Part shown: positions 1 through 43,565 of the stretch, piece by piece
Layout: every line of letters starts with the position of its first letter
Position numbering within the stretch: position 1 is the first letter of the stretch
Assembly: GCA_963734545.1 (NCBI GenBank)
Contig: CAVTHO010000006.1
Span: 1 to 64,000 of the forward strand
Origin: an uncultured Spirochaetota bacterium
GTDB lineage: Bacteria > Spirochaetota > Spirochaetia > SZUA-6 > Fen-1364
DNA: 64,000 nt
Direction of reading: 5' to 3'
Notes under the pieces: model-generated
What the model was told of the DNA's origin: nothing
Seen by the model: the letters and a program-made list of their open reading frames with translations, nothing else
The model's database searches: none
Position numbers and translations under genes: made by a program

Positions 1-8
1 GGTGGGGC

Positions 9-124
9 ATGTAACAAATCGTTGCAGTTGTCCCCTTAGAGGCCGCTCGGAACAGTGAATGCGACCCAGCAATGCAATGAAGCCCTTGTCTGATGCGGCG
101 GGGCAACTGAACTCTATGTTATGT
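9..124 (+). repeat. attC-like site 1
   Basis: ATGTAAC-AAATC-GTTGCAGTTGTCCCC...GGGGCAACTGAAC-TCTAT-GTTATGT. Confidence 0.9.
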
Positions 125-445
125 GGCGATTCTGCGGTGGCCATTGCCTGCGGTGGCGCAGGTCGGTTGGTTTGTGACGGGCGGAGAATGGTGCTGCTAT
201 GTCCAAAAGGTTAGATACCGCCCGGCGAACAAACGGGAACCCCAAATCTTCCGTCAACAGATCAATCGCACAACTCTGGAACCTGTCAAACCTGTCATCT
301 GCTTTTGAGCGGTCTGGTCCTATCGTAGAAGGAAGCGAAAGTTCTTTCATGGACGCCTGGACAATCCGGTAGCTTGTGGGTATGCTTTCGTGCATAGAGA
401 CGAACAACCCAAAGTGAACCAATGTAGTCCGCAGGGGGAACAAGA

Positions 446-866
446 ATGATGAAGTTGGACTATTTGGCGGAGGTTAATACAGGCTGGCCTTCGGATTCCA
501 TCATTCGACTCTACGACTTCACATCCGACGACGTCTCTTTATTTATTCAAGTATTGGACAGGCTTTCAAGTGACTCTGATTATTCAATAATCTTGAGCTC
601 CTTACCCTTTATCCAGCCACTAGACTGGTTGCATGCTGGTTCTAAGAAGTGGCAGAAATGACAACGGAATCAAGAAGACCTCCGCAGCGAATACTTTCGA
701 ATGCGAGCTCACTTGCTCCTCTTGGAAGCGCGCCTCAGAACTCGCAAAGCCATTCCTTCATTACGCTCCACATACTTTTCAGTGGCTATACGATCTAAAT
801 ATGGAGAATAATACTGAAATTCTTAATCTCTCAGACGGGAGAATGGTGAATGACGAGGAGATGTGA
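446..866 (+). pseudogene. Hypothetical cassette gene split by a frameshift (ORFs 446-661 and 633-866)
   Basis: Two overlapping same-strand ORFs that read as one protein; purine-rich RBS upstream. Confidence 0.5.
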
Positions 867-869
867 GAT

Positions 870-2217
870 TGAATGAGCCAAGGACATAGGTTACAAAACA
901 TTCTAAAGACATAGGTAACACTTATTCTAAGGACATGGGTAACACTTTCCTGCCAAAGGAGGGTGCCAGCCATGCCGTGGGAGGGTGTTACTGTGAGCGA
1001 GCAGCGTGAGAACTTGATTCGGGACTACGCCGACGGTTACTACAGCAAAACCGAGCTGGCCGAACGTTTCGGAGTTTCGCGTAAGACCGTACATAAGTGG
1101 ATCAACCGCTTCAAGGCCGAAGGGCTGAAGGGGATAGAGGAGCTCAGTCGGCGGCCACGTAGCTGCCCCTGGCAGACTGACAAACGGATTGTTGAGGACC
1201 TGGTTGCGCTGCGCAAAGCATCTCCGTCGAGGGGGCCGAAGAAGCTCCTGGGGAAACTGCGTAAGCTACACCGCTTTGTTGAATTGCCTGCGGAGTCCAC
1301 CGTGGCGCACATTTTGGATCGCCACGGACTGGTGAAAGCCAAACGACGGCACCGCCGCGCGCATCCAGGCTGTCCCAAGCATGCGGCCACGGCTCCCAAC
1401 GACATCTGGGCGGCTGACTATAAAGGGCAGTTCCGACTGAAGAACGGGCAGTATTGCTTCCCGCTGACCGTGAGTGATCTGTATTCGCGCTTTCTGCTGG
1501 GCTGCGAGGCACACCCAGCGATCTCGATGGAGCAGACAATTGCCTTCTTTCTGCGGCTTTTCCGCATCTATGGGCTGCCCAATCGGATCCGCACGGACAA
1601 CGGAGTGCCATTTGCCTCGTGCGCGTTGGGACGGTTGTCGGCGCTGCAGGTGGTGTACATCAAGTACGGGGTCTGCCCGGAACTGATTGAGCCTGGCAAG
1701 CCCCAACAGAATGGGATCCATGAGCGCATGCATCGGACTCTCAAGCAAGAGGCCACTATTCCGCCCGCCAGCAGCCTGAGAGCTCAGCAGCGGAAGTTCG
1801 ATTCGTTTCGGGAGGAGTTCAACACCGATCGTCCCCATGAAGCACTTGGGATGGTTGATCCGGTCAGCGTGTATCAGTCGTCGCCCCGGGAAATGCCCGA
1901 GCACGTTGGCACCTACGACTATCCGGGACACTACCTGGTTCGGCGCGTGAGCCGCTGTGGTACGATCCGCGTCTTCCACAACCAAGTCTTCGTGACACAG
2001 ACGCTGAACGAAGAATACGTGGGCCTGGAGGAAGTAGACGACGGAGTCTATGACTTGTACTTCTGCTTCTACCAGATTGGCCGTTACGAATTGCAGACCA
2101 ACAGGATCGTGGATATTATCTCGAGGGTGCCAACGAGTCAGACCCGTGCGGAGCTGACTCCGAGAGTGTTACCTATGTCTTTAGAATAAAGTGTTACCTA
2201 TGTCCTTGGATTGTACA
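870..2217 (+). mobile_element. IS481-family element type A, copy 1 (1348 bp)
   Basis: Ends TGAATGAGCCAAGGACATAGGTTACA / TGTTACCTATGTCCTTGGATTGTACA; repeated GACATAGGTAACAC motifs at the left end; apparently identical copies at 7039 and 30435. Confidence 0.9.
963..2189 (+). CDS. IS481-family DDE transposase
   Basis: N-terminal HTH; rve core WAADYKG...RTDNG...QNGIHERMHRTLK. Confidence 0.92.
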   Translation: MPAMPWEGVTVSEQRENLIRDYADGYYSKTELAERFGVSRKTVHKWINRFKAEGLKGIEELSRRPRSCPWQTDKRIVEDLVALRKASPSRGPKKLLGKLRKLHRFVELPAESTVAHILDRHGLVKAKRRHRRAHPGCPKHAATAPNDIWAADYKGQFRLKNGQYCFPLTVSDLYSRFLLGCEAHPAISMEQTIAFFLRLFRIYGLPNRIRTDNGVPFASCALGRLSALQVVYIKYGVCPELIEPGKPQQNGIHERMHRTLKQEATIPPASSLRAQQRKFDSFREEFNTDRPHEALGMVDPVSVYQSSPREMPEHVGTYDYPGHYLVRRVSRCGTIRVFHNQVFVTQTLNEEYVGLEEVDDGVYDLYFCFYQIGRYELQTNRIVDIISRVPTSQTRAELTPRVLPMSLE

Positions 2218-2225
2218 GAAGGGAG

Positions 2226-2341
2226 CCATAACAAATCGTTGCAGTTGTCCGCCTGGGTGCGGCCTGCTCAGGAAGAATGCGGTCCGTGGAACGGGCGCAT
2301 AGCGGTCTGATTCGGGGCGGCAACTGAACTCTATGTTATGA
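2226..2341 (+). repeat. attC-like site 2
   Basis: CCATAAC...GTTATGA, TCCGCC/GGCGG arm variant. Confidence 0.9.
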
Positions 2342-2642
2342 TGCGCCAAGTTATGAACTCATTGGTGGATGGCTGGGCTACCTCGGTGCAGAAGGTCAGG
2401 CCTCCCTGCCTGACCTTCTGCACCTTTAGCAATCGTGGTAAGGTGTCACTTTTTGCATGAACTACTTCCACTATCGGGGCCGGAAAAGCTTGACAAGCGC
2501 CTTGCGGCGGACATCGAGTCGGGCCACTCACAAAGGCGCCGCATCATCTGCTAGTGCAAAAGGTTTGTGATTTGTGAAAAGCACGCCCTCTTTTCGGAGA
2601 AGATATAGATAGCGACCTACGAATGCTCCGGAAACCGGGCTT

Positions 2643-3065: not shown

Positions 3066-3226
3066 ATAATCTCCTTAACTATGAATCAACACACATTGCA
3101 TGATTAGACACAAACAGCGATTTAGCAGGCCCACCTCCAAGAGTTGGCAGCAAGAAGTTAGTGTAAGTTCCCACGCCCTCGCCATCCGTGGCTCGGGCGC
3201 AGTTTTCGGGTAGAGGGGTTGGCGCA

Positions 3227-3343
3227 TCATAACCTGTCGTTGCAGTTGTCCCCTAAGATGCTGCCTGGAACAGTGAATGCAGCCTCGCAATTCCACGTTA
3301 GCGCTGTGTTGATACGGCGGGGCAACTGAACTCTATGTTAGGA
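3227..3343 (+). repeat. attC-like site 3
   Basis: TCATAAC...GTTAGGA. Confidence 0.9.
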
Positions 3344-3453: not shown

Positions 3454-3458
3454 GAGTC

Positions 3459-3722
3459 ATGTACGAGGTTCTGGTGCCGAGGAAGGTGCTGAAGCGCATC
3501 GAAAGGATGCCAGAATCGATACAGGACCGAATGGCCGACCTTCTACGCGACCTGAAAGAGGCCGGCCCACTTCAACCCGGTTGGCCAAATTATGGAACGC
3601 TTGGCCCGGGCCGGTATCACTGCCATCTATCCTACAAATGGGTGGCCTGCTGGTATCACGAAAAGGGTACCATCCGAATCGAGGTGTACTATGCTGGCAG
3701 TCGTGAAGACGCCCCATATTAG
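3459..3722 (+). CDS. RelE/HigB-like toxin
   Basis: 87 aa; YHCHL...WVACW...IEVYYAGSRE; upstream of an HTH gene. Confidence 0.7.
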   Translation: MYEVLVPRKVLKRIERMPESIQDRMADLLRDLKEAGPLQPGWPNYGTLGPGRYHCHLSYKWVACWYHEKGTIRIEVYYAGSREDAPY

Positions 3723-4132
3723 GATCCGCATCGAAGGTAAGATTCCGTCCCGGCTCATCACGGTACTCAAGAAGGAGTACGGCAAAGGGGTACGGCTGGT
3801 AGACGACACCGAGACGAATGACGAGCTGGTTGACGTGTTCCAGACCGACTGGTACAAGCGGACCAAGGGAAGGCTTACTCCTGGCAAGAACCTGAGGATT
3901 TACCGGCAAAACTCGAAGATGACTCAGGCGCAACTGGGCAAGCTCATTGGCTCTACCGAAGCAGTATGTTTCGAACATGGAAAATGATATTCGATCCATA
4001 AGCAAGAACATGGCAATCAAGCTCGCTGCAATCTTCAAGACGTCGGTCGGCAAGATTCATAGGATAGGTAGTCCCAAGGGCAGCGATTTCGGCGCCTTGC
4101 GTCCTAACAAATCGTTGGAGCAGTCGCCTTAA
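3691..4132 (+). pseudogene. XRE HTH antitoxin (HigA-like), frameshifted near 3950
   Basis: PGKNLRIYRQNSKMTQAQLGKLIG continues in another frame as LPKQYVSNMENDIRSISKNMAIKLA. Confidence 0.7.
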
Positions 4133-4218
4133 GGGCTGTTCTGAACCTTGAGTGCAGCCCCGTAAGGAACCTCGGCCCGAGGGCGTGGTCGGCGGCGCTG
4201 CTCAACTCTATGTTATCC
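4102..4218 (+). repeat. attC-like site 4
   Basis: GTTGGAGCAGTCGCC / GGCGCTGCTCAAC covarying arms. Confidence 0.88.
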
Positions 4219-4311: not shown

Positions 4312-4638
4312 TTACTCCAGCTCAAGAGCGATAGAAAGGGCCTTATCTAATTCCGAAACCTTGGCCGATCCGAGTCGACCTACAAAATCGCTAAGGGCGG
4401 ACTTAGGTATGCTGACCAATTCATCACAGTGGATGGAACTTGCATGTTTGAGACCAACTTCAACTCCGACTGCCACTTGTGTGGACAAGCCATCATAGGC
4501 TGTGTAGATGGGAGCGCACGTGACAGAAGAAAACTGGGAATCAATCAAAACTTGACGACTGACAATTACGAACACACGAGATCTGCGGGGATCATTACGA
4601 TTCCCCTTGTAAACGCGAAAGAGCTCTGCTCTTTTCAA
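4312..4638 (-). CDS. mazF: PemK/MazF-family toxin
   Basis: [14 protein letters not shown]...VTCAPI...[18 protein letters not shown]. Confidence 0.85.
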
Positions 4639-4871
4639 CCTCGAAGCTCCACCTGGTACCCAAGGACGTCTTCTGCTTCCTTATTAAGCTTTTCTGATAG
4701 CCTGTTGATTGTCCTAAGGTCGGAAGAATCTCTTTTTTTCCGCTTCAGGATTTCAAGATATGTCCTCACGGCCAACTCTATGAATGCAGATCGGTTGGAC
4801 TCTCCTTCAGCATGTTGATCAATCAGAGCAACAATGTCTCTGGAAAGCGTAACTGATGTCTTTACCTTCAT
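4635..4871 (-). CDS. RHH antitoxin paired with MazF
   Basis: [10 protein letters not shown]...[11 protein letters not shown]; overlaps the toxin start. Confidence 0.8.
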
Positions 4872-4960
4872 ACCACAAGGGTACCACCAATGTCTTCCAA
4901 AGTCAATAATTGAAATGGTTTTGAGAAACGAATAGCGTATTGTGCAGAACAAAGAGAGCG

Positions 4961-5077
4961 GGATAACAAATCGTTGCAGTTGTCCCCTAAGAGGCCGTCT
5001 GGAACGGCGAATGCAGCCTGGCAATTCCACGTAAGTGCTGTGTTGATGCGGCGGGGCAACTGAACTCTATGTTAGGT
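4961..5077 (+). repeat. attC-like site 5
   Basis: GGATAAC...GTTAGGT. Confidence 0.9.
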
Positions 5078-5147: not shown

Positions 5148-5955
5148 ATGAAACAATCAGAGGTCGCCAAACTACGCAAAACTGATATTGATCGTCTCCG
5201 CGAAAAAGCCGCCGCGTACGTAGATGGCATCGCCAAGGAAGCACTTTCAGCGGTGTTGCTGTCGGGAAGCGTAGCGCGAGGTGACTTCTTTCCAGGCAGA
5301 CTAGGTGGAATGATCGACCTTACGGTATTCAAGAAGCCAAACAGCTTCATAACTGCAGAGGAGCTATTTGGAAAGAACGAAGATCCAGAAATCCCATATC
5401 ACTGCGTGAATCGGGAAGGTGACTGGTACCAGATATGGTTCAGCGAGATACCTAACGCTGAAAGCTATAGACTACTGCCGGAGGCTAGGAAATACGCTTT
5501 GGCTGAGTCCAGTGTGCTGTGGCAAGCCGACGGAGCATACTCAGACGTAGATAGCGAGTTCAGGAGGATTGCATCGGAGGAAACGGCAGACCGGCTTCAA
5601 GGCACGACTTGGCGGAATAGGGTACCTCCTCTCGGACTACAAGGTGGACCGATGGCAAAGGCGGAAGGAACGCGGACAATTGCATTTCAACCTTAATGCA
5701 GCGATTGATCTCGCGATTGGCTGTCTTTGCAACATGAATGGGAAGTACGTTCCAGCATCCGATCGAGCTGTGTATTACAGCTATGAACTTGAAAAGAAAC
5801 CGTTGCGCTACGAGAACCTACTTAAAAGATTGATGAATATCAGGCTTGATTCCATCCGGAACTACAGGAATAGAGACGGACTATTCAGATCCGAGTTCCT
5901 AAGGTTCCTAGAGGAACGGCGCCTACCTAACAAATCGTTGCACTTGTCCGCCTGA
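5148..5955 (+). pseudogene. Nucleotidyltransferase-fold protein, frameshifted near 5590
   Basis: LSGSVARGD...IDLTV motif; ORFs 5148-5696 and 5569-5955 overlap; the second reads into site 6. Confidence 0.65.
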
Positions 5956-6038
5956 GCACCGGTTGGAACCGCTGGCATGGTCCGCAGAACCGAGAGTGCG
6001 TAGCGTGGTCGGGGCGGCAAGTGAACTCTATGTTAGAC
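5925..6038 (+). repeat. attC-like site 6
   Basis: GTTGCACTTG / CAAGTGAAC compensatory pair. Confidence 0.9.
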
Positions 6039-6057: not shown

Positions 6058-7041
6058 ATGGAACCGTCGAGTGCAGATGAACTCGCAAGACTGTTGTTTG
6101 AGGCAACAGAAGGTCAAGGGCCAAGGGCCGATTCAAAGGAAGTGATAGCCCGATTTAAGCGGCTAGAGATGGGCCTTCCTGCTGAGGATGAATTTGCCCT
6201 CATGCTTGCGTGGCTGGGCAAATGTAGGCTTGTGCACAGACTAGACCAACAGCAATCACCTCCAGAATCACGGTCGAACTACCAGGTACCAGACCTGCTG
6301 GCGATCTTTGACTTTGAAGGCAAGGAATTGCCTGTATTGATAGAAGTGAAGACGTCGAAAAAGAAGCGCCTGTCTTGGAAAGTTCAGTATTGGGACAAAC
6401 TGAAGCGGTACGCCGGGGCAGTCCAACTCCCAATTCTAGTCGCCTGCAAATGGACCGAGGCCGGCCTTTGGTCACTAGTTGATTTGGATTGCTTCGATGC
6501 ATCAGAAGCAACGAAGAAGCTTCAATTTGCAGATGCCGTGCAAAATGATTTGTTGGGCATCCTTGCTGGCAATTTCTATTATACATTTCAGCCGAGAGTA
6601 GGACTTCACCTAAAGTTCGAAAAAATCTCCGAAGCGCCTTCGGAAGAACCGGATACCCGCACTTATAGAATGATTGTCAGAGAGGCCTACTTCTACAACT
6701 CGAAAGGGGAGGTGCGAGCGAAATTGGCAAACTGGCTCTTCCCGATGTTTCTAGACTATGATCACGAAACCAGAACTGTAGACGGCGATAAATTCCTTGA
6801 CCAGGACTACTTCATTCCTGATCCCGCGGCAATGCAAATAGCATACAAGCTGTTGCCTCAAGTGGTGAGGGGATTGGCGCAAGGACAGAAGCCACATTGG
6901 CGGAAGCTACTGCGCGATTGCGATTTTGCTATTTCATGTCCGGAGCTGCAACGTAGCGCCTCGAAGGAATTTGAGACAGGTATGCTTCAATACATAATGG
7001 AATACCGTCCAAAGCAATTGCCGTCCTTCCTAACGGGCTGA
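6058..7041 (+). CDS. PD-(D/E)XK nuclease-domain protein
   Basis: VPDLLA...LIEVKT motif; stop codon supplied by the IS481 terminal TGA. Confidence 0.7.
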   Translation: MEPSSADELARLLFEATEGQGPRADSKEVIARFKRLEMGLPAEDEFALMLAWLGKCRLVHRLDQQQSPPESRSNYQVPDLLAIFDFEGKELPVLIEVKTSKKKRLSWKVQYWDKLKRYAGAVQLPILVACKWTEAGLWSLVDLDCFDASEATKKLQFADAVQNDLLGILAGNFYYTFQPRVGLHLKFEKISEAPSEEPDTRTYRMIVREAYFYNSKGEVRAKLANWLFPMFLDYDHETRTVDGDKFLDQDYFIPDPAAMQIAYKLLPQVVRGLAQGQKPHWRKLLRDCDFAISCPELQRSASKEFETGMLQYIMEYRPKQLPSFLTG

Positions 7042-8386
7042 ATGAGCCAAGGACATAGGTTACAAAACATTCTAAAGACATAGGTAACACTTATTCTAAG
7101 GACATGGGTAACACTTTCCTGCCAAAGGAGGGTGCCAGCCATGCCGTGGGAGGGTGTTACTGTGAGCGAGCAGCGTGAGAACTTGATTCGGGACTACGCC
7201 GACGGTTACTACAGCAAAACCGAGCTGGCCGAACGTTTCGGAGTTTCGCGTAAGACCGTACATAAGTGGATCAACCGCTTCAAGGCCGAAGGGCTGAAGG
7301 GGATAGAGGAGCTCAGTCGGCGGCCACGTAGCTGCCCCTGGCAGACTGACAAACGGATTGTTGAGGACCTGGTTGCGCTGCGCAAAGCATCTCCGTCGAG
7401 GGGGCCGAAGAAGCTCCTGGGGAAACTGCGTAAGCTACACCGCTTTGTTGAATTGCCTGCGGAGTCCACCGTGGCGCACATTTTGGATCGCCACGGACTG
7501 GTGAAAGCCAAACGACGGCACCGCCGCGCGCATCCAGGCTGTCCCAAGCATGCGGCCACGGCTCCCAACGACATCTGGGCGGCTGACTATAAAGGGCAGT
7601 TCCGACTGAAGAACGGGCAGTATTGCTTCCCGCTGACCGTGAGTGATCTGTATTCGCGCTTTCTGCTGGGCTGCGAGGCACACCCAGCGATCTCGATGGA
7701 GCAGACAATTGCCTTCTTTCTGCGGCTTTTCCGCATCTATGGGCTGCCCAATCGGATCCGCACGGACAACGGAGTGCCATTTGCCTCGTGCGCGTTGGGA
7801 CGGTTGTCGGCGCTGCAGGTGGTGTACATCAAGTACGGGGTCTGCCCGGAACTGATTGAGCCTGGCAAGCCCCAACAGAATGGGATCCATGAGCGCATGC
7901 ATCGGACTCTCAAGCAAGAGGCCACTATTCCGCCCGCCAGCAGCCTGAGAGCTCAGCAGCGGAAGTTCGATTCGTTTCGGGAGGAGTTCAACACCGATCG
8001 TCCCCATGAAGCACTTGGGATGGTTGATCCGGTCAGCGTGTATCAGTCGTCGCCCCGGGAAATGCCCGAGCACGTTGGCACCTACGACTATCCGGGACAC
8101 TACCTGGTTCGGCGCGTGAGCCGCTGTGGTACGATCCGCGTCTTCCACAACCAAGTCTTCGTGACACAGACGCTGAACGAAGAATACGTGGGCCTGGAGG
8201 AAGTAGACGACGGAGTCTATGACTTGTACTTCTGCTTCTACCAGATTGGCCGTTACGAATTGCAGACCAACAGGATCGTGGATATTATCTCGAGGGTGCC
8301 AACGAGTCAGACCCGTGCGGAGCTGACTCCGAGAGTGTTACCTATGTCTTTAGAATAAAGTGTTACCTATGTCCTTGGATTGTACA
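7039..8386 (+). mobile_element. IS481-family element type A, copy 2
   Basis: Same ends and transposase as copy 1. Confidence 0.9.
7132..8358 (+). CDS. IS481-family transposase
   Basis: Identical translation to 963-2189. Confidence 0.92.
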   Translation: MPAMPWEGVTVSEQRENLIRDYADGYYSKTELAERFGVSRKTVHKWINRFKAEGLKGIEELSRRPRSCPWQTDKRIVEDLVALRKASPSRGPKKLLGKLRKLHRFVELPAESTVAHILDRHGLVKAKRRHRRAHPGCPKHAATAPNDIWAADYKGQFRLKNGQYCFPLTVSDLYSRFLLGCEAHPAISMEQTIAFFLRLFRIYGLPNRIRTDNGVPFASCALGRLSALQVVYIKYGVCPELIEPGKPQQNGIHERMHRTLKQEATIPPASSLRAQQRKFDSFREEFNTDRPHEALGMVDPVSVYQSSPREMPEHVGTYDYPGHYLVRRVSRCGTIRVFHNQVFVTQTLNEEYVGLEEVDDGVYDLYFCFYQIGRYELQTNRIVDIISRVPTSQTRAELTPRVLPMSLE

Positions 8387-8394
8387 GCCGGGCG

Positions 8395-8510
8395 TTATAA
8401 CAAATCGTTGCAGTTGTCCCCTTAGGTGCTGACTGGAACGGTGTATGCAACTTGGCAATTCCATGGAGTTTTGGCCTGATGCGGCGGGGCAACTGAACTC
8501 TATGTTAGGT
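8395..8510 (+). repeat. attC-like site 7
   Basis: TTATAAC...GTTAGGT. Confidence 0.9.
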
Positions 8511-9428: not shown

Positions 9429-9543
9429 ACCTAACAAATCGTTGCAGTAGTCGCCTTAAAGGCCGTCTAAATCGGACGGTGCAGTTCCGAATTCCATGCA
9501 GTGCTGGGTTGATGCGGCGGCGCTACTGAACTCTATGTTACAT
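9429..9543 (+). repeat. attC-like site 8
   Basis: GTAGTCGCC / GGCGCTAC arm variant. Confidence 0.9.
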
Positions 9544-9995
9544 GCCCCAAAATGACAAAACGCGCACCTATCGAGAACGGTTGGCTACATCCATATTCAT
9601 TGAATAGAAGAATCCCGCTTTTGCAGTGGGAAATTTCTGCTGCCTAGATTGGACATAAGTAGCACCCGAGATATTGAAAACAACACATGGCAGGCTGTTG
9701 CCTAACAAAAGGATGAGACAACGGTAAGCCGGATGATTGTAAGCATTGATGTGCTGTATGCCTAGGAAATTGCGCTCCCAGGGCGGTGTATTGCGCAAAA
9801 GAAAACTAATCACGCACAAGCGTGGGCTGCATTAATCTTATCCGCTGGCGCGGAAGATTGGAGGCCGTTCTATCGGAATTGACGTTGTATTCACGGTCTA
9901 TCTTGATCGGTGATGTATTAGAACAAAAGGAATTGTGCAGTTTGCATTCCGCCCACGCAATAGAATGGCTTGAAAAGAGCGGTGGGGCATGTAAC
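9537..9995 (+). other. ORF-less cassette, copy A
   Basis: GTTACATGCCCCA...TGGGGCATGTAAC; closely similar copy at 24201-24661; no ORF conserved between them. Confidence 0.75.
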
Positions 9996-10105
9996 AAATC
10001 GTTGCAGTTGTCCCCTAAGAGGCCGCCTGGGATTGGTGAATGCAGCTTGGCAATCCGATTCAGTGCAGTGTTGATGCGGCGGGGCAACTGAACTCTATGT
10101 TATGA
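9989..10105 (+). repeat. attC-like site 9
   Basis: ATGTAAC...GTTATGA. Confidence 0.9.
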
Positions 10106-11077: not shown

Positions 11078-11193
11078 TCATAACAAATCGTTGCAGTAGT
11101 CGCCTTAGGGGCCGTGTGGAACGGCGGATGCAGCTTGGCAATTCAAAGTAGCGTTGGGTTGATGCGGCGGCGCTACTGAACTCTATGTTATAG
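11078..11193 (+). repeat. attC-like site 10
   Basis: TCATAAC...GTTATAG. Confidence 0.9.
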
Positions 11194-12531: not shown

Positions 12532-12587
12532 AATTGCCCAAGAGGAAAAGAGCTGTTCTCCTTTGTGCATGGTTGCAAATGAGGGGC

Positions 12588-12607
12588 CTTAGGTTCAAGG
12601 TTGAAGT
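12588..12607. mobile_element. Isolated IS30 type B terminal repeat (scar)
   Basis: CTTAGGTTCAAGGTTGAAGT, identical to 26371-26390, fused into site 11. Confidence 0.8.
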
Positions 12608-12703
12608 TGTCCGCCTGAGTGCGGCCTGCTGACGAAGAATGCAGTCCGTCGAACTAGCGCATAGCGGTATGATTCGGGGCGGCAACTGAACTCTATGTTA
12701 GGT
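12600..12703 (+). repeat. attC-like site 11 (R'' end replaced)
   Basis: AGTTGTCCGCC...GGCGGCAACTGAACTCTATGTTAGGT, but no TAACAAATC. Confidence 0.85.
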
Positions 12704-16884: not shown

Positions 16885-18232
16885 TGAACCGTTCGGGGAC
16901 ATAGGTAACAAAGTCTTCTGGAGACATAGGTAACACTTATTCTGGGGACATGGGTAACACTCTTCTCGCAAGAGGAGGTGGTGGCCATGCCGTGGAAAGG
17001 GGTTACCGTGAGCGAACAGAGAGCAAACTTCCTCCGAGACTACGCGCTGAAGTACTACAGCGTGACTGAGTTGGGGGAGATGTACAGTATTTCCCGAAAG
17101 ACCGCCTACAAGTGGATCGATCGCCACGAGGAATTAGGACGCAGCGGTCTGGAGGACCTGTCGCGACGTCCTCATAGTTGTCCTTGGCAGACACCAGGGT
17201 ACATTGCCGAGGAACTGGTGAAGGTGCGGGAGAAGCATCCGTACTGGGGACCGAAGAAGCTGCTGGATATCATGGAGCGCAGGCACCGCAGGTGGCAGCT
17301 TCCTTCGGTGGCCACCGCGGCACATATTCTGGCCGAAAAAGGTCTGGTACGTGAGAGGCGCCGGCATCGGCGGGCTCACCCCGGATGTCCGAAGAGCGTT
17401 GCCGAGGGACCGAATGATATCTGGGGATCCGACTACAAGGGTCAGTTCCGAATGGGCAACGGGCAGTACTGCTTCCCCCAGACCGTCAGCGACCTGCATA
17501 CGCGCTTCCTTCTGGGGTGCGACGGCCATCCGCAGGTATCCGCGGAGCTGACCAAGGTGCATTTTACAGGGCTTTTTCGCACCTTTGGGCTTCCCCGACG
17601 GATTCGCACCGACAACGGTGTTCCATTCGCGTCCAACGCGCTGGGTCGGTTGTCAGACTTGTCGGTGTGGTACATCAAGCTGGGCATATATCCTGAGCTC
17701 ATCGAGCCAGGTCGGCCGCAACAGAACGGGATCCATGAGCGAATGCATCGAACGCTGAAGCAAGGCACCACTCATCCGCCTGGCAGCAGTCTGAAAAGCC
17801 AACAGGAGAAGTTCGAGACCTTTCGGAAGGAATACAACGAGGACCGCCCTCACGAGGCGCTGCAAATGAAGAGGCCAGCGGAGGTGTACCAACCCTCATC
17901 GCGGGAACTGCCTGAGCGAATCGAAACCTATGACTACCCCAATCAGTTCCTGGTGAGGCGCGTCAGCCGTTGCGGAACGATTCGAGTCTTTGGAAATCAA
18001 GCGTTTGTCAGTCAGACACTGAACGAGGACTTCGTGGGCCTGGAGGAAGTGGATGACGGCGTCTATGACATCTACTTTTGCTTCTACTTGATCGGGCGCT
18101 ATGAATTGCGCACCAATACGATACATGACATCATTACCAAAGTCGCGGTGAGCGTCAGGAAGGCAGAGGGGCCATCGAGGGTGTCACCTATGTCTCCAGA
18201 ATAAAGTGTTACCCATGTCCCTTGATTGTACA
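16885..18232 (+). mobile_element. IS481-family element type B, copy 1 (1348 bp)
   Basis: TGAACCGTTCGGGGACATAGG...TGTCCCTTGATTGTACA; same layout as type A. Confidence 0.9.
16978..18204 (+). CDS. IS481-family transposase
   Basis: Homologue of the type A transposase (WGSDYKG, RTDNG, HERMHRTLK). Confidence 0.92.
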   Translation: MVAMPWKGVTVSEQRANFLRDYALKYYSVTELGEMYSISRKTAYKWIDRHEELGRSGLEDLSRRPHSCPWQTPGYIAEELVKVREKHPYWGPKKLLDIMERRHRRWQLPSVATAAHILAEKGLVRERRRHRRAHPGCPKSVAEGPNDIWGSDYKGQFRMGNGQYCFPQTVSDLHTRFLLGCDGHPQVSAELTKVHFTGLFRTFGLPRRIRTDNGVPFASNALGRLSDLSVWYIKLGIYPELIEPGRPQQNGIHERMHRTLKQGTTHPPGSSLKSQQEKFETFRKEYNEDRPHEALQMKRPAEVYQPSSRELPERIETYDYPNQFLVRRVSRCGTIRVFGNQAFVSQTLNEDFVGLEEVDDGVYDIYFCFYLIGRYELRTNTIHDIITKVAVSVRKAEGPSRVSPMSPE

Positions 18233-18241
18233 ACGGGATGA

Positions 18242-18357
18242 ACATAACAAATCGTTGGAGCCGTCCCCTAAGAGGCTGCCTGGAACCATGGGCTATGTCT
18301 GAATGAACCGCCGCCGCTGTGCTGTGGTCGGCGGGGCGGCTCAACTCTATGTTAGGC
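18242..18357 (+). repeat. attC-like site 12
   Basis: GTTGGAGCCGTCCCC / GGGGCGGCTCAAC covarying arms. Confidence 0.88.
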
Positions 18358-20310: not shown

Positions 20311-20312
20311 AT

Positions 20313-20428
20313 GCCTAACAAATCGTTGCAGTTGTCCGCCTGGGTGCAGTGTGTTAAGTGTTAATGCAGTCTGTCGAACCGTCGCATAGCTATTTGATTC
20401 GGGGCGGCAACTGAACTCTATGTTATGT
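20313..20428 (+). repeat. attC-like site 13
   Basis: GCCTAAC...GTTATGT. Confidence 0.9.
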
Positions 20429-21301: not shown

Positions 21302-21416
21302 ACATAACAAATCGTTGCAGTAGTCGCCTTAAGGGCCGTCTGGAAGTGGCGGTGCAGCCCGAGAAGCCTTGGGCTTTTGGCTTCGGGCGGCGGGGCAACT
21401 GAACTCTATGTTATGT
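21302..21416 (+). repeat. attC-like site 14 (hybrid arms)
   Basis: Left arm GTAGTCGCC, right arm GGGGCAAC. Confidence 0.88.
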
Positions 21417-21572
21417 TCAACAAAGCCGCGATCAGCACAGCGGAATGCCAGCTGTCGCTTGGCACCGAGAGCATCGGCGCGGAAAGGTCTATATCGAGCG
21501 TCGACAAGGTCGGCTCTGGTAGGTGATTGACTATACGTATGCATGGTGATACTTTATACGTGGAGAATCACA

Positions 21573-21824: not shown

Positions 21825-22245
21825 GGTCTTTATTGACACGGATGTACTGCTGGACGTCTTCCTAGAAAGAGAGCCGCATCATTCGATAGCCTTGCGTCTT
21901 CTTACGGACCTACGACGAAATGGGACAAGCTGCCTTACCTCAGCGGTCGTGCTGGCAAACATGAACTACATACTCGCCAAGGCAAAGGGCAGAGAGTACT
22001 CAGTCAACAAGTTGCGTTCCTTGCGGAGGATGGTTGGTGTCGCCCCCATCGACGAAGCGATGGTAGATGCTGCACTGGCGGCGCCACATCGCGACTTTGA
22101 AGATAGTCTCCAATTTCATTGTGCGAGTGGAAGCGGAATTGGAACGTTGATAACGCGTAACGCAAAGCACTACCCCAAGGGCCGACTTCGCGTCACAAGT
22201 CCAGTTGAGTATCTGGGATCTCAAGGTCCTGCAGAATCTGGTTGA
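21817..22245 (+). CDS. PIN-domain toxin
   Basis: VFIDTDVLLD...DFEDSLQ...LITRN. Confidence 0.88.
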   Translation: MTKVFIDTDVLLDVFLEREPHHSIALRLLTDLRRNGTSCLTSAVVLANMNYILAKAKGREYSVNKLRSLRRMVGVAPIDEAMVDAALAAPHRDFEDSLQFHCASGSGIGTLITRNAKHYPKGRLRVTSPVEYLGSQGPAESG

Positions 22246-22360
22246 ACATAACAAATCGTTGCAGTTGTCCCCTTAGAGGCTGCTCGGAACGGTGGGTGCA
22301 GCCTGGCAACTACAGGCAGTGCAGGTTGATGCGGCGGGGCAACTGAACTCTATGTTAGAA
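22246..22360 (+). repeat. attC-like site 15
   Basis: Begins directly after the PIN stop codon; ACATAAC...GTTAGAA. Confidence 0.9.
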
Positions 22361-23154: not shown

Positions 23155-23270
23155 TTCTAACAAATCGTTGCAGTAGTCGCCTTAAGGGCCGTCTGGAACT
23201 GTGAATGCAGCCTGGCAATTCCGTGCAGCGTTGGTTTGATGCGGCGGGGCAACTGAACTCTATGTTCTGC
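23155..23270 (+). repeat. attC-like site 16 (hybrid arms; R' = GTTCTGC)
   Basis: TTCTAAC...GTTCTGC. Confidence 0.88.
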
Positions 23271-24091: not shown

Positions 24092-24207
24092 GCAGAACAA
24101 ATCGTTGCAGTTGTCCCCTTGAAGGCCGTTTGGATCGGTGCATGCAGTCTGGCAATTCCATGTAGTGTTGGGTTGATGCGGCGGGGCAACTGAACTCTAT
24201 GTTACAT
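24092..24207 (+). repeat. attC-like site 17
   Basis: GCAGAAC...GTTACAT. Confidence 0.9.
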
Positions 24208-24661
24208 GCCCCAAAATGACAAAACGCGCACCTATCGAGAACGGTTGGCTACATCCATATTCATGGAATAGAAGAATCCCGCTTTTGCCGTGAGAGATTT
24301 CTGCTGCCTAGATTGGGCATACGTAGCACTCGAGATATTGAAAACAACACATGGCAGGCTGTTGCCCAACGAAAGGATGAGACAACGGTAAGCCGGATGA
24401 TTGTAGGCATTGATGTGCTGTATGCCTAGGAAATTACGCTCCTAGGGCGGTGTGTTGCGCAAAAGAAAACCAATCACGCACAAGCGTGGGCTGCATTTAT
24501 CTTATCCGCTGGCGCAGAAGATCGGCGGCCGTTCAGTCGGAATTGACGTTGTATTCACGGTCTACCATTGCTTGGTGATGTGTTGGGACAAAAGGATTTG
24601 TGCAGTTTGCATTCCGCCCACGCAATAGAATGGCTTGAAAAGAGACGGTGGGGCATGTAAC
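24201..24661 (+). other. ORF-less cassette, copy B
   Basis: Diverged duplicate of 9537-9995. Confidence 0.75.
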
Positions 24662-24770
24662 AAATCGTTGCAGTTGTCCCCTTAGAGGCCGCTCGGAACA
24701 GTGAATGCGGCCCGGCAATTCAATGAAGCCCTTGTCTGATGCGGCGGGGCAACTGAACTCTATGTTATCT
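24655..24770 (+). repeat. attC-like site 18
   Basis: Nearly identical to site 1. Confidence 0.9.
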
Positions 24771-25452: not shown

Positions 25453-25568
25453 AGATAACAAATCGTTGCAGTTGTCCCCTTAGAGGCTGTTTTGAACTGT
25501 GAATGCAGCCTGTCAATTGCATTCAGTCTTGGGTTGATGCGGCGGGGCAACTGAACTCTATGTTATGT
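25453..25568 (+). repeat. attC-like site 19
   Basis: AGATAAC...GTTATGT. Confidence 0.9.
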
Positions 25569-26357: not shown

Positions 26358-26370
26358 ACAACTGGAGAGA

Positions 26371-27454: not shown

Positions 27455-27569
27455 GCATAACAAATCGTTGCAGTTGTCCCCTAAGAGGCCGCCTGGAACG
27501 GTGAATGCAGCCTGGCAATTCCATGCAGTGCAGGTTGATGCGGCGGGGCAACTGAACTCTATGTTAGGT
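27455..27569 (+). repeat. attC-like site 20
   Basis: GCATAAC...GTTAGGT. Confidence 0.9.
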
Positions 27570-29454: not shown

Positions 29455-29456
29455 GG

Positions 29457-29571
29457 TCATAACAAATCGTTGCAGTAGTCGCCTTGAGGGCCGTCTGGAA
29501 CAGAAGGTGCAGTTCGGAATTCCAAAAGGAGCCGGGTTGATGCGGCGGCGCTACTGAACTCTATGTTATGT
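29457..29571 (+). repeat. attC-like site 21
   Basis: TCATAAC...GTTATGT. Confidence 0.9.
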
Positions 29572-31782: not shown

Positions 31783-31791
31783 GAAGGGAGC

Positions 31792-32882: not shown

Positions 32883-32997
32883 CCATAACAAATCGTTGCA
32901 GTTGTCCCCTATGAGGCCGCCTGTAGCGGTGAATGCAGCTTGGCATTCCATAGAGTGTTGGGTTGATGCGGCGGGGCAACTGAACTCTATGTTAGAT
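32883..32997 (+). repeat. attC-like site 22
   Basis: CCATAAC...GTTAGAT. Confidence 0.9.
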
Positions 32998-35352: not shown

Positions 35353-35467
35353 ATCTAACAAATCGTTGCAGTTGTCCCCTATGAGGCCGCCTGTAGCGGT
35401 GAATGCAGCTTGGCATTCCATGCAGTGCTGGGTCGATGCGGCGGGGGAACTGAACTCTATATTATGC
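35353..35467 (+). repeat. attC-like site 23 (R' mutated GTT>ATT)
   Basis: ATCTAAC...TCTAT-ATTATGC; body nearly identical to site 22. Confidence 0.85.
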
Positions 35468-37543: not shown

Positions 37544-38119
37544 ATGAAAAGTATAGATCTTTACCTGCAACAAAGGGATCAGCGCTTCTATTGCAAGGAC
37601 AACACCGAAACCAGAGAACTAATCGTTGATCTGCAAAATATTGTTGGGGAACCTGCAACCCTGGATGAATTGCGGCTGCTAGATAGGATAGCCCGCAGGG
37701 AATCAAAACACCTTGCAGAACTTTACAGGACTTATAATGGGCTTCAGCTTCAAATCAATAAGAAAACTATTGGCTTGATCATCACATCTATAAGGAATCT
37801 CAAACAACTCAATAAGGACTGGAAGGATTGGTTTCGTCACTCGCCTAGAAGGGAATTGTATGACTATCAGAGAGAGGGGTTTGCTTTCGGAGAGATCTGC
37901 CATAGTGGGAACTATTTCGTAATGTACGGAGGCTATGTTTACTATAGTAGCCATGATTCCGCGGATGATGAGCAGTGGGGATATGGCCTCGATGTTTTTT
38001 TCGACAGAGCCCTGTCTGATCCAACAAGGTTTCTGTGGGAAGTCGGTTGCTACACCAGATATTCGGATGGAAAGACCGATGTGCAATATATACCCAACAA
38101 GTTCCTGTTCAAGCAATGA
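37544..38119 (+). CDS. Hypothetical protein (possibly SMI1/KNR4-like)
   Basis: GGGGAG RBS; LAELYRTYNGL, FAFGEICHSGNYF; family assignment is tentative. Confidence 0.55.
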   Translation: MKSIDLYLQQRDQRFYCKDNTETRELIVDLQNIVGEPATLDELRLLDRIARRESKHLAELYRTYNGLQLQINKKTIGLIITSIRNLKQLNKDWKDWFRHSPRRELYDYQREGFAFGEICHSGNYFVMYGGYVYYSSHDSADDEQWGYGLDVFFDRALSDPTRFLWEVGCYTRYSDGKTDVQYIPNKFLFKQ

Positions 38120-38125
38120 TCATTA

Positions 38126-38157
38126 ATGCGGCGGGGCAACTGAACTCTATGTTATGA
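38126..38157 (+). repeat. attC-like right half-site
   Basis: ATGCGGCGGGGCAACTGAACTCTATGTTATGA with no left arm. Confidence 0.8.
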
Positions 38158-42768: not shown

Positions 42769-43455
42769 CTAATCTACTTTAACAAATTGAAATCCAAATC
42801 GTTGTCCAATTTCGCTTCTAGACTTCGTATCCATTAGATTGCGGTACCCCAGGCCTGGTACGTTGTACGGTAGCGCAAACAAGTTCCAAATCTCTGCCTG
42901 TCTATCATCCGCCGATGCATACTTTCCCTCTAGGACGGTCCTTAGTTTTGAAACATCTGCGCTCGGAAACGTGCTTTCAATGTCTTCCAGCCCCTGGATC
43001 GAAGAAGACTTTCCTGCCCCAGGGGACGAATCATATTCAAATACCTTCTCTCCATATGCGTAGGCTGCTATCGACAGCTCTTTGCTATCATGGTTGAGCA
43101 CATAAACAGCAATGGATTCTAAGCTTTTTGAAAGCCTCTTTGCCAGGTTCCTACCATAAACATCGTCCTGGCTGTCCATTGTCTTTTCGCAGATGACAGC
43201 CGCGTCAGGCTTCCCTAGGACAACAATCGCTGTGAGACCCATGTCCTTGGCTGCGTCAACGACAGCGTCGGGATTTGTGCCCACAATGGTTATGTTCGCA
43301 TAGAACGACCCCGCCCATGAAAGCACCGGCAACAACGCCAACCCAGCGGCCACCAACAGAACTAGTCGCAGTTTCAAGGCGCTCGCTCCTTTCACTAAAG
43401 GAGCGAGCAGTATAATACATTTCCTGATGCAATGCACCAGCATATAGCGGGCCAT
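42769..43455 (-). CDS. Secreted hypothetical cassette protein (start probably near 43377)
   Basis: Signal-like LKLRLVLLVAAGLALLPVLSWAGSFY; lies between minus-strand sites. Confidence 0.6.
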   Translation of the reverse strand: MARYMLVHCIRKCIILLAPLVKGASALKLRLVLLVAAGLALLPVLSWAGSFYANITIVGTNPDAVVDAAKDMGLTAIVVLGKPDAAVICEKTMDSQDDVYGRNLAKRLSKSLESIAVYVLNHDSKELSIAAYAYGEKVFEYDSSPGAGKSSSIQGLEDIESTFPSADVSKLRTVLEGKYASADDRQAEIWNLFALPYNVPGLGYRNLMDTKSRSEIGQRFGFQFVKVD

Positions 43456-43565
43456 CTATCATAGAGTTGAGCTGTGCCGCCGAATAAGACTTGTAGTAGC
43501 GTAGCGGATAAGCCCCTTCAAACCAAACTGCACCCACGGCGACAGTTCCAACGATTTTGCTAGAG
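43454..43565 (-). repeat. Degenerate attC-like site (minus strand)
   Basis: Reverse complement reads CTCTAGC-AAAATC-GTTGGAACTGTCGCC...GGCACAGCTCAAC-TCTAT-GATAGAT. Confidence 0.75.

What the first reader, a model, noticed from the sequence alone, without database searches (positions are those of the whole stretch)
2226..2341. attC-like sites have 'complemented' extrahelical bases (G and T on the top strand)
Seen: the left arm GTT[G]CAGTTG[T]CCCC pairs with GGGGCAACTGAAC, leaving a bulged G and a bulged T. Both bulges persist through covarying arms: GTAG[T]CGCC/GGCGCTAC, CACTTG/CAAGTG, GAGCCG[T]CCCC/GGGGCGGCTC and GAGCAG[T]CGCC/GGCGCTGCTC. The AAATC/TCTAT spacers stay unpaired. This shows selection on a hairpin. 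Established: in typical attC (aadA, VCR) the top strand has C and A at these positions, so the recombined bottom strand displays G and T. Inference: here the bottom strand would display C and A, suggesting different strand choice or a different recognition mode.
Basis: partly seen in the sequence, partly recalled or inferred. Interest (0 to 1): 0.8.

Follow-up and report, generated by a model that had tools for sequence, protein, structure and literature searches.

The report
Integron attC sites with swapped bulge bases
This is an ordinary-shaped array of integron cassette recombination sites whose two flipped-out bases differ from the textbook ones, a natural variant shared by a whole bacterial lineage and not a sign of a new recombination mechanism.

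Summary
The window holds 22 complete attC sites (13-35467, + strand), one degenerate site and one truncated site. All 22 fold as TAAC-5 nt-GTT[G]-6 bp-[T]-4 bp ... with G and T bulged on the + strand. Six stem pairs covary (0 of 500 shuffles reach this).

The + strand is the top strand. The bulges lie on the 5'-AAC arm, most cassette ORFs are on +, and on contig C5 intI, attI and two sites of the same family are arranged as in ordinary integrons. So the bottom strand shows A-N6-C where the textbook has T-N6-G, with unchanged geometry. Published work says strand choice depends on bulge position, not base identity. Changed strand choice is therefore not supported.

The variant is not unique. In 80 integrase loci from many phyla, top-strand G at the first bulge was the commonest state (81 of 159 sites). 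T at the second was rare (12 of 159).

The same attC family occurs in 27 of 61 genomes searched (G000 included). There, T and A alternate at the second bulge, even within one array. No integrase residue tracks the bulge base.

One further oddity is lineage-wide: the top strand is G-rich and predicted to fold more stably, the reverse of the published rule.

The parts
9..124 (+). attC site s13, arms CCCC/GGGG, bulged G and T
   Evidence: 123.6 bits
2226..2341 (+). attC site s2230 (the finding), arms CCGCC/GGCGG, bulged G and T
   Evidence: 93.9 bits
3227..3343 (+). attC site s3231; spacer CCTGT in place of AAATC
4102..4218 (+). attC site s4106, covarying arms GAGCAG[T]CGCC/GGCGCTGCTC
4961..5077 (+). 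attC site s4965
5925..6038 (+). attC site s5929, covarying CACTTG/CAAGTG
8395..8510 (+). attC site s8399
9429..9543 (+). attC site s9433, covarying GTAG[T]CGCC/GGCGCTAC
9989..10105 (+). attC site s9993
11078..11193 (+). attC site s11082 (GTAG[T]CGCC type)
12587..12703 (+). degenerate attC: both arms and both bulges kept, but the R'' TAAC and spacer are lost
   Evidence: 59.7 bits
18242..18357 (+). attC site s18246, covarying GAGCCG[T]CCCC/GGGGCGGCTC
20313..20428 (+). attC site s20317 (CCGCC type)
21302..21416 (+). attC site s21306; hybrid with left arm GTAG[T]CGCC and right arm GGGGCAAC (2 mismatches)
22246..22360 (+). attC site s22250
23155..23270 (+). attC site s23159; hybrid arms as in s21306; R' reads GTTC
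24092..24207 (+). attC site s24096 (R'' GAAC)
24655..24770 (+). attC site s24659 (98% identical to s13)
25453..25568 (+). attC site s25457
27455..27569 (+). attC site s27459
   Evidence: 131.1 bits
29457..29571 (+). attC site s29461 (GTAG[T]CGCC type)
32883..32997 (+). attC site s32887
35353..35467 (+). attC site s35357; R' reads ATT instead of GTT and has one arm mismatch
38092..38157 (+). truncated last site of the array: only the right arm, spacer and R' remain
   Evidence: 15.7 bits, E 0.05
43454..43565 (-). decayed attC relic in inverted orientation; bulged G and T kept, AAC/GTT triplets mutated
   Evidence: 51.6 bits
44633..44745 (-). decayed attC relic in inverted orientation (GAC ... 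GCT in place of AAC ... GTT)
   Evidence: 87.8 bits
46561..46675 (-). decayed attC relic in inverted orientation (R' lost)
   Evidence: 80.4 bits

Best explanation
The repeats are the attC recombination sites of a large sedentary chromosomal integron. Its integrase gene and attI lie on another contig of the same assembly. Each site has the canonical architecture: R'' (TAAC), a 5-nt unpaired spacer, an L stem with one extrahelical base after 3 bp and a second 6 bp further on, a variable ~68-nt centre, then L', a 5-nt spacer and R' (GTTA).

The window's + strand is the top strand. The folded - (bottom) strand is therefore the one expected to be bound and cleaved by IntI at AA^C in R'. It carries the two flipped-out bases on the arm opposite that triplet, as in all studied attC sites. 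Only the identity of those bases differs: A and C (A-N6-C) where mobile integrons and Vibrio repeats have T and G.

This is a lineage-typical sequence variant. C at the first bottom-strand bulge is the norm in this order and common in environmental integrons generally. A or T alternates at the second.

Shown: the structure, the covariation, the orientation, and the distribution in relatives and other phyla. Inferred from published mutagenesis and the VchIntIA-VCR structure: that the bottom strand is still the recombined one and that the integrase tolerates either base.
For: (1) Structure and covariation.

(2) Top-strand assignment by three independent cues.
- Bulges are on the 5'-AAC arm of +. 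This is the published definition of the top strand (Nivina 2016).
- In my reading of the ORF list, about 15 array intervals have their non-IS ORFs of at least 90 aa on +, against 4 on -.
- On contig C5 the integron integrase (TIGR02249, 403.9 bits against a cut-off of 265) points away from two sites of the same family on the opposite strand. The attI junction reads G|TTATGTTCAG, the complement of the R'' flank CTGAACATAAC of the first attC. That is what a crossover at R' gives.

(3) The integrase is a true IntI. It matches VchIntIA (2a3v) at E 5.7e-80 with the integron-specific insertion. The contacts to the G bulge are K/R/K/Y/W as in IntI1, and the proline is kept. The catalytic positions I recognise from recall (Arg, Lys, His, Arg, His, Tyr) are among the invariant columns of A2.

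(4) Identity matters little in experiments. G16 changed to A, T or C in VCR costs 1.2- to 2.7-fold (Bouvier 2009). An engineered A-N6-C attC is excised at 79% by IntI2*179E, 45% by SonIntIA and 33.5% by IntI1. Natural attC-dfrA1 is A-N7-8-C (Larouche & Roy 2011). Position, not identity, sets strand choice.

(5) Distribution.
- Covariance model R1 finds the family in 27 of 61 genomes searched (G000 included), 15 of 20 in the genus.
- In 172 structurally detected sites of 19 relatives, the top-strand bulges are GT 101, GA 65, TA 5 and AT 1.
- GT and GA are mixed within single arrays (G408 6 and 6; G423 9 and 42).

(6) Broad survey of 80 named IntI loci: 159 sites in 54 loci. The first top-strand bulge is G 81, C 58, A 10, T 10. 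The last is A 114, G 17, C 16, T 12. The shuffled control gave 8 hits in 1.03 Mb.
Against: No recombination assay exists for this integrase or these sites, so bottom-strand use rests on homology and arrangement.

Three cues that normally favour the bottom strand are reversed here.
- The G and T bulge bases are on the top strand.
- The top strand is G-rich (GC skew +0.13; +0.23 in the central part).
- The top strand is predicted to fold more stably: the bottom strand is more stable in 0 of 22 sites, with a mean difference of 1.57 kcal/mol.

The published rule for 263 attC sites from the INTEGRALL database (the authors discuss the skews as a property of mobile-integron sites) is the opposite: bottom more stable by 2.12 kcal/mol. 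Class-mate arrays obey that rule (bottom more stable in 15 of 16, 20 of 20 and 10 of 10).

The window's array and intI are on different contigs, so their linkage is inferred. The His that stacks on the T bulge in VchIntIA (H240) is Tyr here. Tyr was seen in 0 of 80 survey integrases, so some change in the pocket is possible. The array carries 10 IS copies and decayed relics, so parts of it may no longer recombine.
Confidence: 0.8

Rival explanations
1. Co-adapted recognition. The lineage's integrase has a remodelled bulge pocket (an aromatic Tyr or Phe where VchIntIA has H240). It prefers or requires C and A on the bottom strand, making these sites a partly orthogonal attC class that canonical integrases handle poorly, and vice versa.
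For: Position H240 is Y in G000 and in G264, the only other all-'GT' array in the phylum sample, although the two integrases are only 44% identical. It is Y or F in 7 of 9 integrases of this lineage, G000 included, against 0 Y and 4 F among 80 survey integrases. IntI1 and IntI3 do prefer T at that bulge.
Against: The residue does not track the base. G417 has F with GT in 64 of 64 sites. G421 has F with GA in 4 of 4. G434 has Y with GA 8 and TA 4. G408 has F with GT 6 and GA 6 in one array. G423b has HH with GA 42 and GT 9. L088 has HH with T at the last bulge in 4 of 4 sites. Y also occurs in G329 and G044, whose few detected sites have A at the last bulge. The residues that contact the first bulge are the same as in IntI1.
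Confidence: 0.12
2. Changed strand choice. The + strand carries G and T bulges, is G-rich and folds better, so it is the strand that is folded and recombined.
For: Base identity, GC skew and predicted stability all favour the + strand. The same holds across the lineage, where the top strand is more stable in 125 of 162 sites.
Against: On the + strand the bulges are on the same arm as 5'-AAC, which published work says hinders integrase binding. Recombining that strand would insert cassettes in the opposite orientation relative to attI. Yet on C5 and in the window the sites and most ORFs point away from intI as in canonical integrons, and the attI junction is at a G|TT, not at an attC body. G264 has GT bulges but a more stable bottom strand in 6 of 6 sites, so the two traits are separable.
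Confidence: 0.04
3. Neutral drift in a homogenised, largely inactive array. The bulge bases are simply those of the founder copy, spread by duplication and gene conversion, and say nothing about function.
For: The sites are 80% identical on average. Half of the stem columns are invariant too. The array holds 6 IS481-like and 4 IS30-like copies, hybrid-arm sites, and truncated and decayed sites.
Against: The first bulge is G in 166 of 172 sites across 19 relatives in several families, while the surrounding stems covary. The second bulge is only T or A in those sites. Each R' flank remains complementary to the next site's R'' flank for up to 12 nt in the pairs I read, as expected of cassettes made by site-specific recombination. 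The integrase frame is open and the invariant columns of A2 are kept.
Confidence: 0.1

Closest known systems
Canonical attC sites of mobile integrons (aadA type) and Vibrio cholerae repeats (VCR)
   Same: R''/R' boxes with AAC/GTT, 5-nt unpaired central spacers, an L stem with an extrahelical base 3 bp from the spacer and a second one 6 bp further on, both on the R''-L'' arm. A variable centre, cassette arrays, and an IntI with the integron-specific insertion. A tool-derived control is the 52-nt aadA-like site in L098, ATT[C]AAGCCG[A]CGCC.
   Different: The bulged bases are G and T on the top strand instead of C and A, so the bottom strand shows C and A instead of G and T. The top strand, not the bottom, is G-rich and predicted to be more stable.
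attC of dfrA1 (class 2 integron) and its engineered A-N6-C derivative (Larouche & Roy 2011, PMC3053210; abstract, passages and section 13 read)
   Same: The bottom-strand bulges are A and C. The engineered A-N6-C version has exactly the identity and spacing found here, and four integrases excise it (IntI3 only weakly, about 17%).
   Different: Natural attC-dfrA1 has 7-8 bp between the bulges and is a single mobile cassette site. Here A-N6-C is fixed in a whole chromosomal array and in a family of sites across an order.
'GA'-type attC arrays of environmental chromosomal integrons (for example the Planctomycetota, Acidobacteriota, Anaerolineales and cyanobacterial MAG loci L156, L147, L143, L095, L113, L138)
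   Same: The first top-strand bulge is G (C on the bottom strand), with 3-bp and 6-bp spacing. This was the commonest class in my survey: GA 52 of 159 sites, first bulge G 81 of 159.
   Different: Their second top-strand bulge is the canonical A; the window has T. Arrays with mostly T were seen only in L088 (4 of 4), G264 (6 of 6), G417 (64 of 64) and smaller samples of this genus.
attC arrays of class-mate genomes (G284, G240, G195, G317, G323, G305)
   Same: Same phylum and class as the window's genome. The integron integrase is 43-50% identical, and the site layout is the same.
   Different: They carry canonical C and A on the top strand (for example 13 of 17 hits 'CA' in L038 and 17 of 20 in L045). 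Their bottom strands are the more stable ones.

Membership tests
integron attC site | Outer inverted repeats R''/R' carrying the conserved 5'-AAC / GTT-3' triplets | tested here: met
   A5 A6 C7 are invariant in all 22 sites. T115 and T116 are invariant, and G114 is G in 21 of 22 (A in s35357). The TAAC/GTTA helix is 96.6% paired.
integron attC site | Inner imperfect repeats L''/L' with 2-3 extrahelical bases on the R''-L'' arm, the first inside L'' and the last 6 bp further on | tested here: met
   The layout 3 bp-bulge-6 bp-bulge-4 bp was found in 19 of 22 sites with at most 1 mismatch, and nowhere else in 40 kb on either strand. The folds agree.
integron attC site | Unpaired central spacer of about 5-6 nt on each arm | tested here: met
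   AAATC / TCTAT, 5 + 5 nt, with at most one A-T pair predicted.
integron attC site | Sites arranged in one orientation, separating short, mostly promoterless ORFs (a cassette array) | tested here: met
   All 22 sites are on +, spaced 560-7164 nt. In my reading of the ORF list, non-IS ORFs of at least 90 aa are on + in about 15 intervals and on - in 4.
integron attC site | An integron integrase (tyrosine recombinase with the IntI-specific insertion) and an attI next to sites of the same family | tested here: met
   TIGR02249 scores 403.9 bits against a cut-off of 265 at C5:2875-3807. Two R1 matches lie within 2 kb on the opposite strand. The attI junction G|TTATGTTCAG is complementary to the first R'' flank. 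intI is on a different contig from the window.
integron attC site | Bottom-strand extrahelical bases G (first, 'almost exclusively') and T (last, 'conserved'). This is a usual property, not a requirement. | tested here: not met
   The bottom strand has C and A in 22 of 22 sites. Substitution experiments show that identity is not essential.
integron attC site | Bottom strand purine-rich and more stably folded than the top strand (a statistical property of 263 INTEGRALL attC sites) | tested here: not met
   The bottom strand is more stable in 0 of 22 sites. Top-strand GC skew is +0.13.
integron attC site | Recombined as a folded bottom strand by IntI, with the crossover between A and C of R' | not testable with these tools
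   Only indirect evidence: the attI junction and flank complementarity fit a crossover at R'.
integron attC site | Detected by the IntegronFinder attC covariance model | not testable with these tools
   That model is not in Rfam. Rfam gave 0 matches in the window. I built my own model, R1, instead.

The most novel reading that the evidence does not exclude
In this order-level lineage every strand-asymmetry cue except the position of the bulges is flipped to the top strand: bulge identity, G/T richness and predicted folding stability. If this is selected rather than mutational, it could be a built-in brake that keeps the recombinogenic bottom strand from folding, stabilising very large sedentary arrays. 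It might work together with an integrase whose T-bulge pocket has become aromatic (Tyr or Phe for His) and base-indifferent. That would make these sites a naturally evolved low-activity or partly orthogonal attC class.
Probability: 0.15. Interest if true: 0.55.

Novelty: new member of a known kind. Interest (0 to 1): 0.3.

Why it matters
It corrects a textbook generalisation. The 'conserved G and T' of attC sites comes from clinical and Vibrio-centred collections. In a sample of 80 integrase loci from many phyla, C on the bottom strand (G on top) was the commonest first bulge, and a whole bacterial order uses C with either A or T. This matters in two ways.
- Tools that score attC sites by sequence as well as structure may be affected.
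- It bears on arguments about how far integrases read base identity and how far they read shape.

The lineage-wide reversal of strand skew and predicted stability gives a natural test case for the proposal that nucleotide skew helps strand selection. It does not point to a new mechanism.

Tried and rejected
- **Rfam scan of the window:** 0 matches. No attC family is held there.
- **Flank complementarity as a strand test:** I considered using the complementarity between each R' flank and the next R'' flank to decide which strand is exchanged. I rejected it because both models predict the same pattern.
- **Duplicated cassettes as a strand test:** I tried to use them to see which attC travels with an ORF. 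Candidates were 9433-10103 against 24096-24768, a third copy at the end of C1, and window 2-869 against the end of C9. The copies are interrupted by IS elements or lie at contig ends, so this gave no clear answer.
- **Integrase covariation:** I tested whether Tyr at the position of VchIntIA H240 covaries with the second bulge. It does not.
- **Mutational-skew explanation:** I considered that the G/T bulges are a by-product of general G+T enrichment of the top strand through strand-biased mutation. C-to-G and A-to-T changes are transversions that deamination does not explain, so this is left open.
- **Limits of the structural detector:**
  - It uses fixed layouts and allows at most 1 mismatch.
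  - It missed 3 of the 22 window sites.
  - It found nothing in 26 of 80 survey loci.
  - It mis-registers some three-bulge sites (for example L052 and L067).
  - Several survey 'GT' hits (L150, L160, L161) look doubtful, so the survey counts are approximate.
- **Literature:** three full-text searches and passages of seven papers found no statement about natural C/A bulges other than attC-dfrA1. That does not show it is unpublished. Figure S1 of Bouvier 2009 and the supplements of Nivina 2016 and Ghaly 2021 may hold bulge statistics that bear on this.

Full report
**What is there**

The first 38 kb of the window (contig C6 of a 10-contig, 5.1-Mb assembly, 89% complete) is a cassette array.
- Pattern and repeat searches find 22 complete copies of a ~110-nt element, all on the + strand, between 13 and 35467.
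- Two further matches are right halves only, at 12688 and 38142. The one at 12587-12703 is a whole site that has lost its outer left repeat.
- Each copy reads TAAC-AAATC-GTT[G]CAGTTG[T]CCCC ... about 68 variable nt ... GGGGCAACTGAAC-TCTAT-GTTA.

**Check of the observation**

- DNA folding of three sites on both strands gives the two stems, with a bulged G and a bulged T on the + strand and C and A on the - strand.
- In the alignment of the 22 sites the two bulged columns are invariant.
- For the 17 stem pairs, 97.9% of cells pair and six pairs show compensatory changes (17 cells). None of 500 shuffles reaches these values, and sliding the 3' partners by 1-3 columns drops pairing to 27-49%.
- The site at 2226-2341 has inner arms CCGCC/GGCGG rather than the CCCC/GGGG quoted, which belong to the majority type.

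One caveat applies. About half of the stem columns are invariant too, so invariance of two columns inside one homogeneous array is not by itself evidence for selection on the identity of the bulged bases.

**Which strand is the top strand**

Three independent cues agree that + is the top strand.
- The bulges lie on the arm that carries 5'-AAC-3'. This is how the top strand is defined structurally (Nivina et al. 2016, PMC5027507, passages read).
- In my reading of the ORF list, about 15 array intervals have their non-transposase ORFs of at least 90 aa on +, against 4 on -.
- The genome's only integron integrase is at C5:2875-3807 on the + strand of that contig (TIGR02249, 403.9 bits against a cut-off of 265). 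Two sites of the same family lie on the - strand at C5:335-453 and 1177-1288. So intI and the cassettes diverge, as in ordinary integrons.

Reading outward from intI, the intergenic region ends in ...ATATG|TTATGTTCAG. That is the exact complement of the R'' flank CTGAACATAAC of the first attC, which is the signature of a crossover at R'.

More sites of the family lie at the end of C9 and on C3. Model R1 finds 35 in the genome. The array is broken over several contigs by repeats, so the window's linkage to intI is inferred.

**What differs from the textbook**

The geometry is exactly canonical: the first bulge is 3 bp from the spacer and the second is 6 bp further on, both on the R''-L'' arm. 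Only the bases differ. The bottom strand shows A-N6-C in place of T-N6-G.

The literature I read says the following.
- The first bulge is 'almost exclusively a G' and the last 'a conserved T' (Bouvier et al. 2009, PMC2727003; Nivina 2016).
- Replacing G16 of VCR by A, T or C costs only 1.2- to 2.7-fold.
- Strand selection follows the location of the bulges, with cumulative effects and help from the spacer and the central part.
- The natural attC of dfrA1 has A-N7-8-C. An engineered A-N6-C version is excised at 79% by IntI2*179E, 45% by SonIntIA and 33.5% by IntI1 (Larouche & Roy 2011, PMC3053210).

So the base combination found here has an experimental precedent. Known integrases tolerate it to varying degrees.

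**How common it is**

I wrote a structure-only detector: AAC, 3-8 nt, 3 bp, bulge, 5-8 bp or 3+3 bp, bulge, 4 bp, mirrored before GTT, with at most 1 mismatch. It finds 19 of the 22 window sites, all 'GT', and nothing else in 40 kb on either strand.

| Sample | Result |
|---|---|
| Class-mate genomes with an integron integrase | Canonical 'CA' on the top strand (13 of 17 hits in L038, 17 of 20 in L045, 7 of 10 in L051) |
| Other families of the phylum | G264 'GT' in 6 of 6; G057 and G060 mostly 'GA' |
| 80 named IntI loci from many phyla | 159 sites in 54 loci; first top-strand bulge G 81, C 58, A 10, T 10; last A 114, G 17, C 16, T 12; 'GA' 52, 'CA' 26, 'GT' 8 |

In the 80-locus survey, shuffled sequences gave 8 hits in 1.03 Mb and minority-strand hits numbered 4. 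Of the eight 'GT' hits about five look sound: three in the Steroidobacteraceae MAG L088 and one each in L095 and L147. A class-1-type control, L098, gives the expected C and A.

So top-strand G is common outside the clinical and Vibrio data sets. Top-strand T is uncommon but recurrent.

**The lineage**

A covariance model built from the 22 sites (R1) matches 27 of 61 genomes searched (G000 included). These include 15 of 20 in the genus, 19 of 24 in the family, and some in other families of the order.

In fetched arrays of 19 relatives the detector sites: GT 101, GA 65, TA 5 and AT 1. The first bulge is G in 166 of 172. GT and GA coexist within single arrays (G408 6 and 6; G423 9 and 42), whereas G417 is GT in 64 of 64. 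The window's second-bulge T is therefore one state of an A/T polymorphism handled by the same integrases.

**The integrase**

P0001 (499 aa) aligns with VchIntIA (2a3v) at E 5.7e-80 over residues 193-497.

The residues said to contact the G bulge are Q145, W157, K209, Y210 and W219 in VchIntIA, corresponding to K156, R168, K219, Y220 and W229 in IntI1. Here they are K325, R337, K388, Y389 and W398, which is the IntI1 pattern.

Of the residues around the T bulge (P232, H240, H241), P411 and H420 are kept and H240 is Y419. Tyr at that position occurs in 0 of 80 survey integrases. It does occur in G264 and, as Y or F, in 7 of 9 integrases of this lineage, G000 included.

It does not track the bulge base, so I treat it as a lineage trait, not a specificity switch.

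| Integrase | Residue at H240 position | Second-bulge pattern in its array |
|---|---|---|
| G417 | F | GT 64 of 64 |
| G421 | F | GA 4 of 4 |
| G434 | Y | GA 8, TA 4 |
| G408 | F | GT 6, GA 6 |
| G423b | H | GA 42, GT 9 |
| L088 | H | T at the last bulge in 4 of 4 |

**An extra asymmetry**

The + strand of the sites is G-rich (GC skew +0.13, +0.23 in the central part; AT skew -0.07). It is predicted to fold as well as or better than the - strand in every site: the bottom strand is more stable in 0 of 22, with a mean difference of 1.57 kcal/mol.

- Nivina et al. report the opposite for 263 attC sites from the INTEGRALL database (they discuss the skews as a property of mobile-integron sites): the bottom strand is more stable by 2.12 kcal/mol and purine-rich.
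- Class-mate arrays behave as published: bottom more stable in 15 of 16, 20 of 20 and 10 of 10.
- The reversal holds across the lineage, where the top strand is more stable in 125 of 162 sites and the bottom in 35. It is not tied to the second bulge (GT mean +1.22, GA +0.73).
- G264 has GT bulges but more stable bottom strands in 6 of 6 sites.
- A few survey arrays are also reversed, such as L107 and L143.

The window as a whole has positive GC skew on + (+0.07 in the array, +0.04 beyond). If + is the leading strand, this puts the bottom strands on the leading-strand template. Loot et al. 2017 report that orientation for 25 of 30 sedentary integrons (PMC5371416). Whether the local skew is mutational or selected I cannot tell.

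**Verdict**

These are genuine attC sites of canonical shape in a large, IS-ridden sedentary integron.
- The 'complemented' bulge bases are real and depart from the textbook.
- Position rather than identity governs strand choice in all published tests.
- The arrangement around intI/attI is canonical.
- The variant is widespread in the lineage, its first-bulge state is common across phyla, and no integrase change tracks it.

I put 0.8 on ordinary bottom-strand recombination with tolerated base variants, about 0.12 on co-adapted recognition and about 0.04 on altered strand choice. These figures are judged separately and do not sum to 1. The lineage-wide reversal of skew and predicted stability is the most interesting residue and is directly testable.

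Noticed in passing
window 870-2227, 7039-8387, 30435-31792 (identical copies); 16885-18282, 33997-35393; 36144-37427: Six copies of an IS481-family element lie inside the array, in three sequence variants. The 408-aa transposase has rve/rve_3 and LZ_Tnp_IS481 domains. Several copies end within a few bases of the R'' of the next attC. At the point corresponding to window 869/870, the end of contig C9 has the other IS type instead.
   Followed up: partly
window 19222-20316, 28366-29460, 31792-32886; diverged copy about 26370-27357: Four copies of a second IS lie on the - strand. Its 347-aa or 320-aa transposase has HTH_38 + rve domains, which I recall as IS30-like. Each of the three near-identical copies sits immediately upstream of an attC R'', which suggests targeting of the cassette/attC boundary.
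   Followed up: no
window 43454-43565, 44633-44745, 46561-46675 (- strand); ORF 44813-45700 (+): Three decayed attC copies lie in inverted orientation 5-8 kb beyond the end of the array. They keep the bulged G and T, but their AAC/GTT triplets are mutated. Two of them flank a 295-aa Xer-like tyrosine recombinase gene (Phage_integrase, 121.5 bits; only 89 bits to the integron-integrase model). A lone left half-site stands at about 40438-40475 on +.
   Followed up: partly
window 21302-21416 and 23155-23270: Two sites have a left arm of one type (GTAG[T]CGCC) and a right arm of another (GGGGCAAC), giving two mismatches. Site-specific crossover at R' cannot make such hybrids. Homologous exchange or conversion through the conserved central part is more likely.
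   Followed up: no
all 22 sites; relatives G417, G423, G408, G434 and others: The structural top strand is G-rich and predicted to fold more stably than the bottom strand. The bottom is more stable in 0 of 22 sites here, and the top is more stable in 125 of 162 sites in relatives. This is the reverse of the published rule for 263 INTEGRALL (mobile-integron) attC sites and of class-mate arrays.
   Followed up: partly
for example window 2335-2346 with 3224-3235; 9537-9545 with 9987-9995; 21410-21418 with 22244-22252: The bases after each R' GTT are complementary to the bases before the next site's R'' AAC for 9-12 nt. A circularised cassette would therefore have an R stem much longer than the usual 7 bp.
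   Followed up: no
G000 C5:2311-3810 (locus L001 937-2436): The integron integrase frame is 499 aa. It has an N-terminal extension of about 185 aa with a proline-rich linker before the usual IntI core. Relatives also have long open frames (417-542 aa). An inverted repeat AACATAAC-GGGCG-GTTATGTT lies just upstream, in the presumed attI region.
   Followed up: no
window 2-869 versus the last 868 nt of contig C9; window 24199-24650 versus C1:91033-91486 and window 9535-9979: Cassettes are present in two or three copies with different neighbours (92-99% identical). Several contigs of the assembly end inside the array, so the real array is larger than any one contig shows.
   Followed up: partly
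80 named IntI loci L085-L164: Across phyla the first top-strand extrahelical base was G more often than the 'canonical' C (81 against 58 of 159 sites). By my tally, 10 of 23 arrays with at least 3 sites are mostly G and 8 mostly C. This suggests the textbook consensus reflects the clinical and Vibrio bias of the reference sets.
   Followed up: partly
window 3457-4053 and 4312-5030: Two cassettes each carry a pair of small overlapping ORFs, one pair on + and one on -. They look like toxin-antitoxin pairs, which I recall as a common feature of sedentary integron arrays. No family search was run on them.
   Followed up: no
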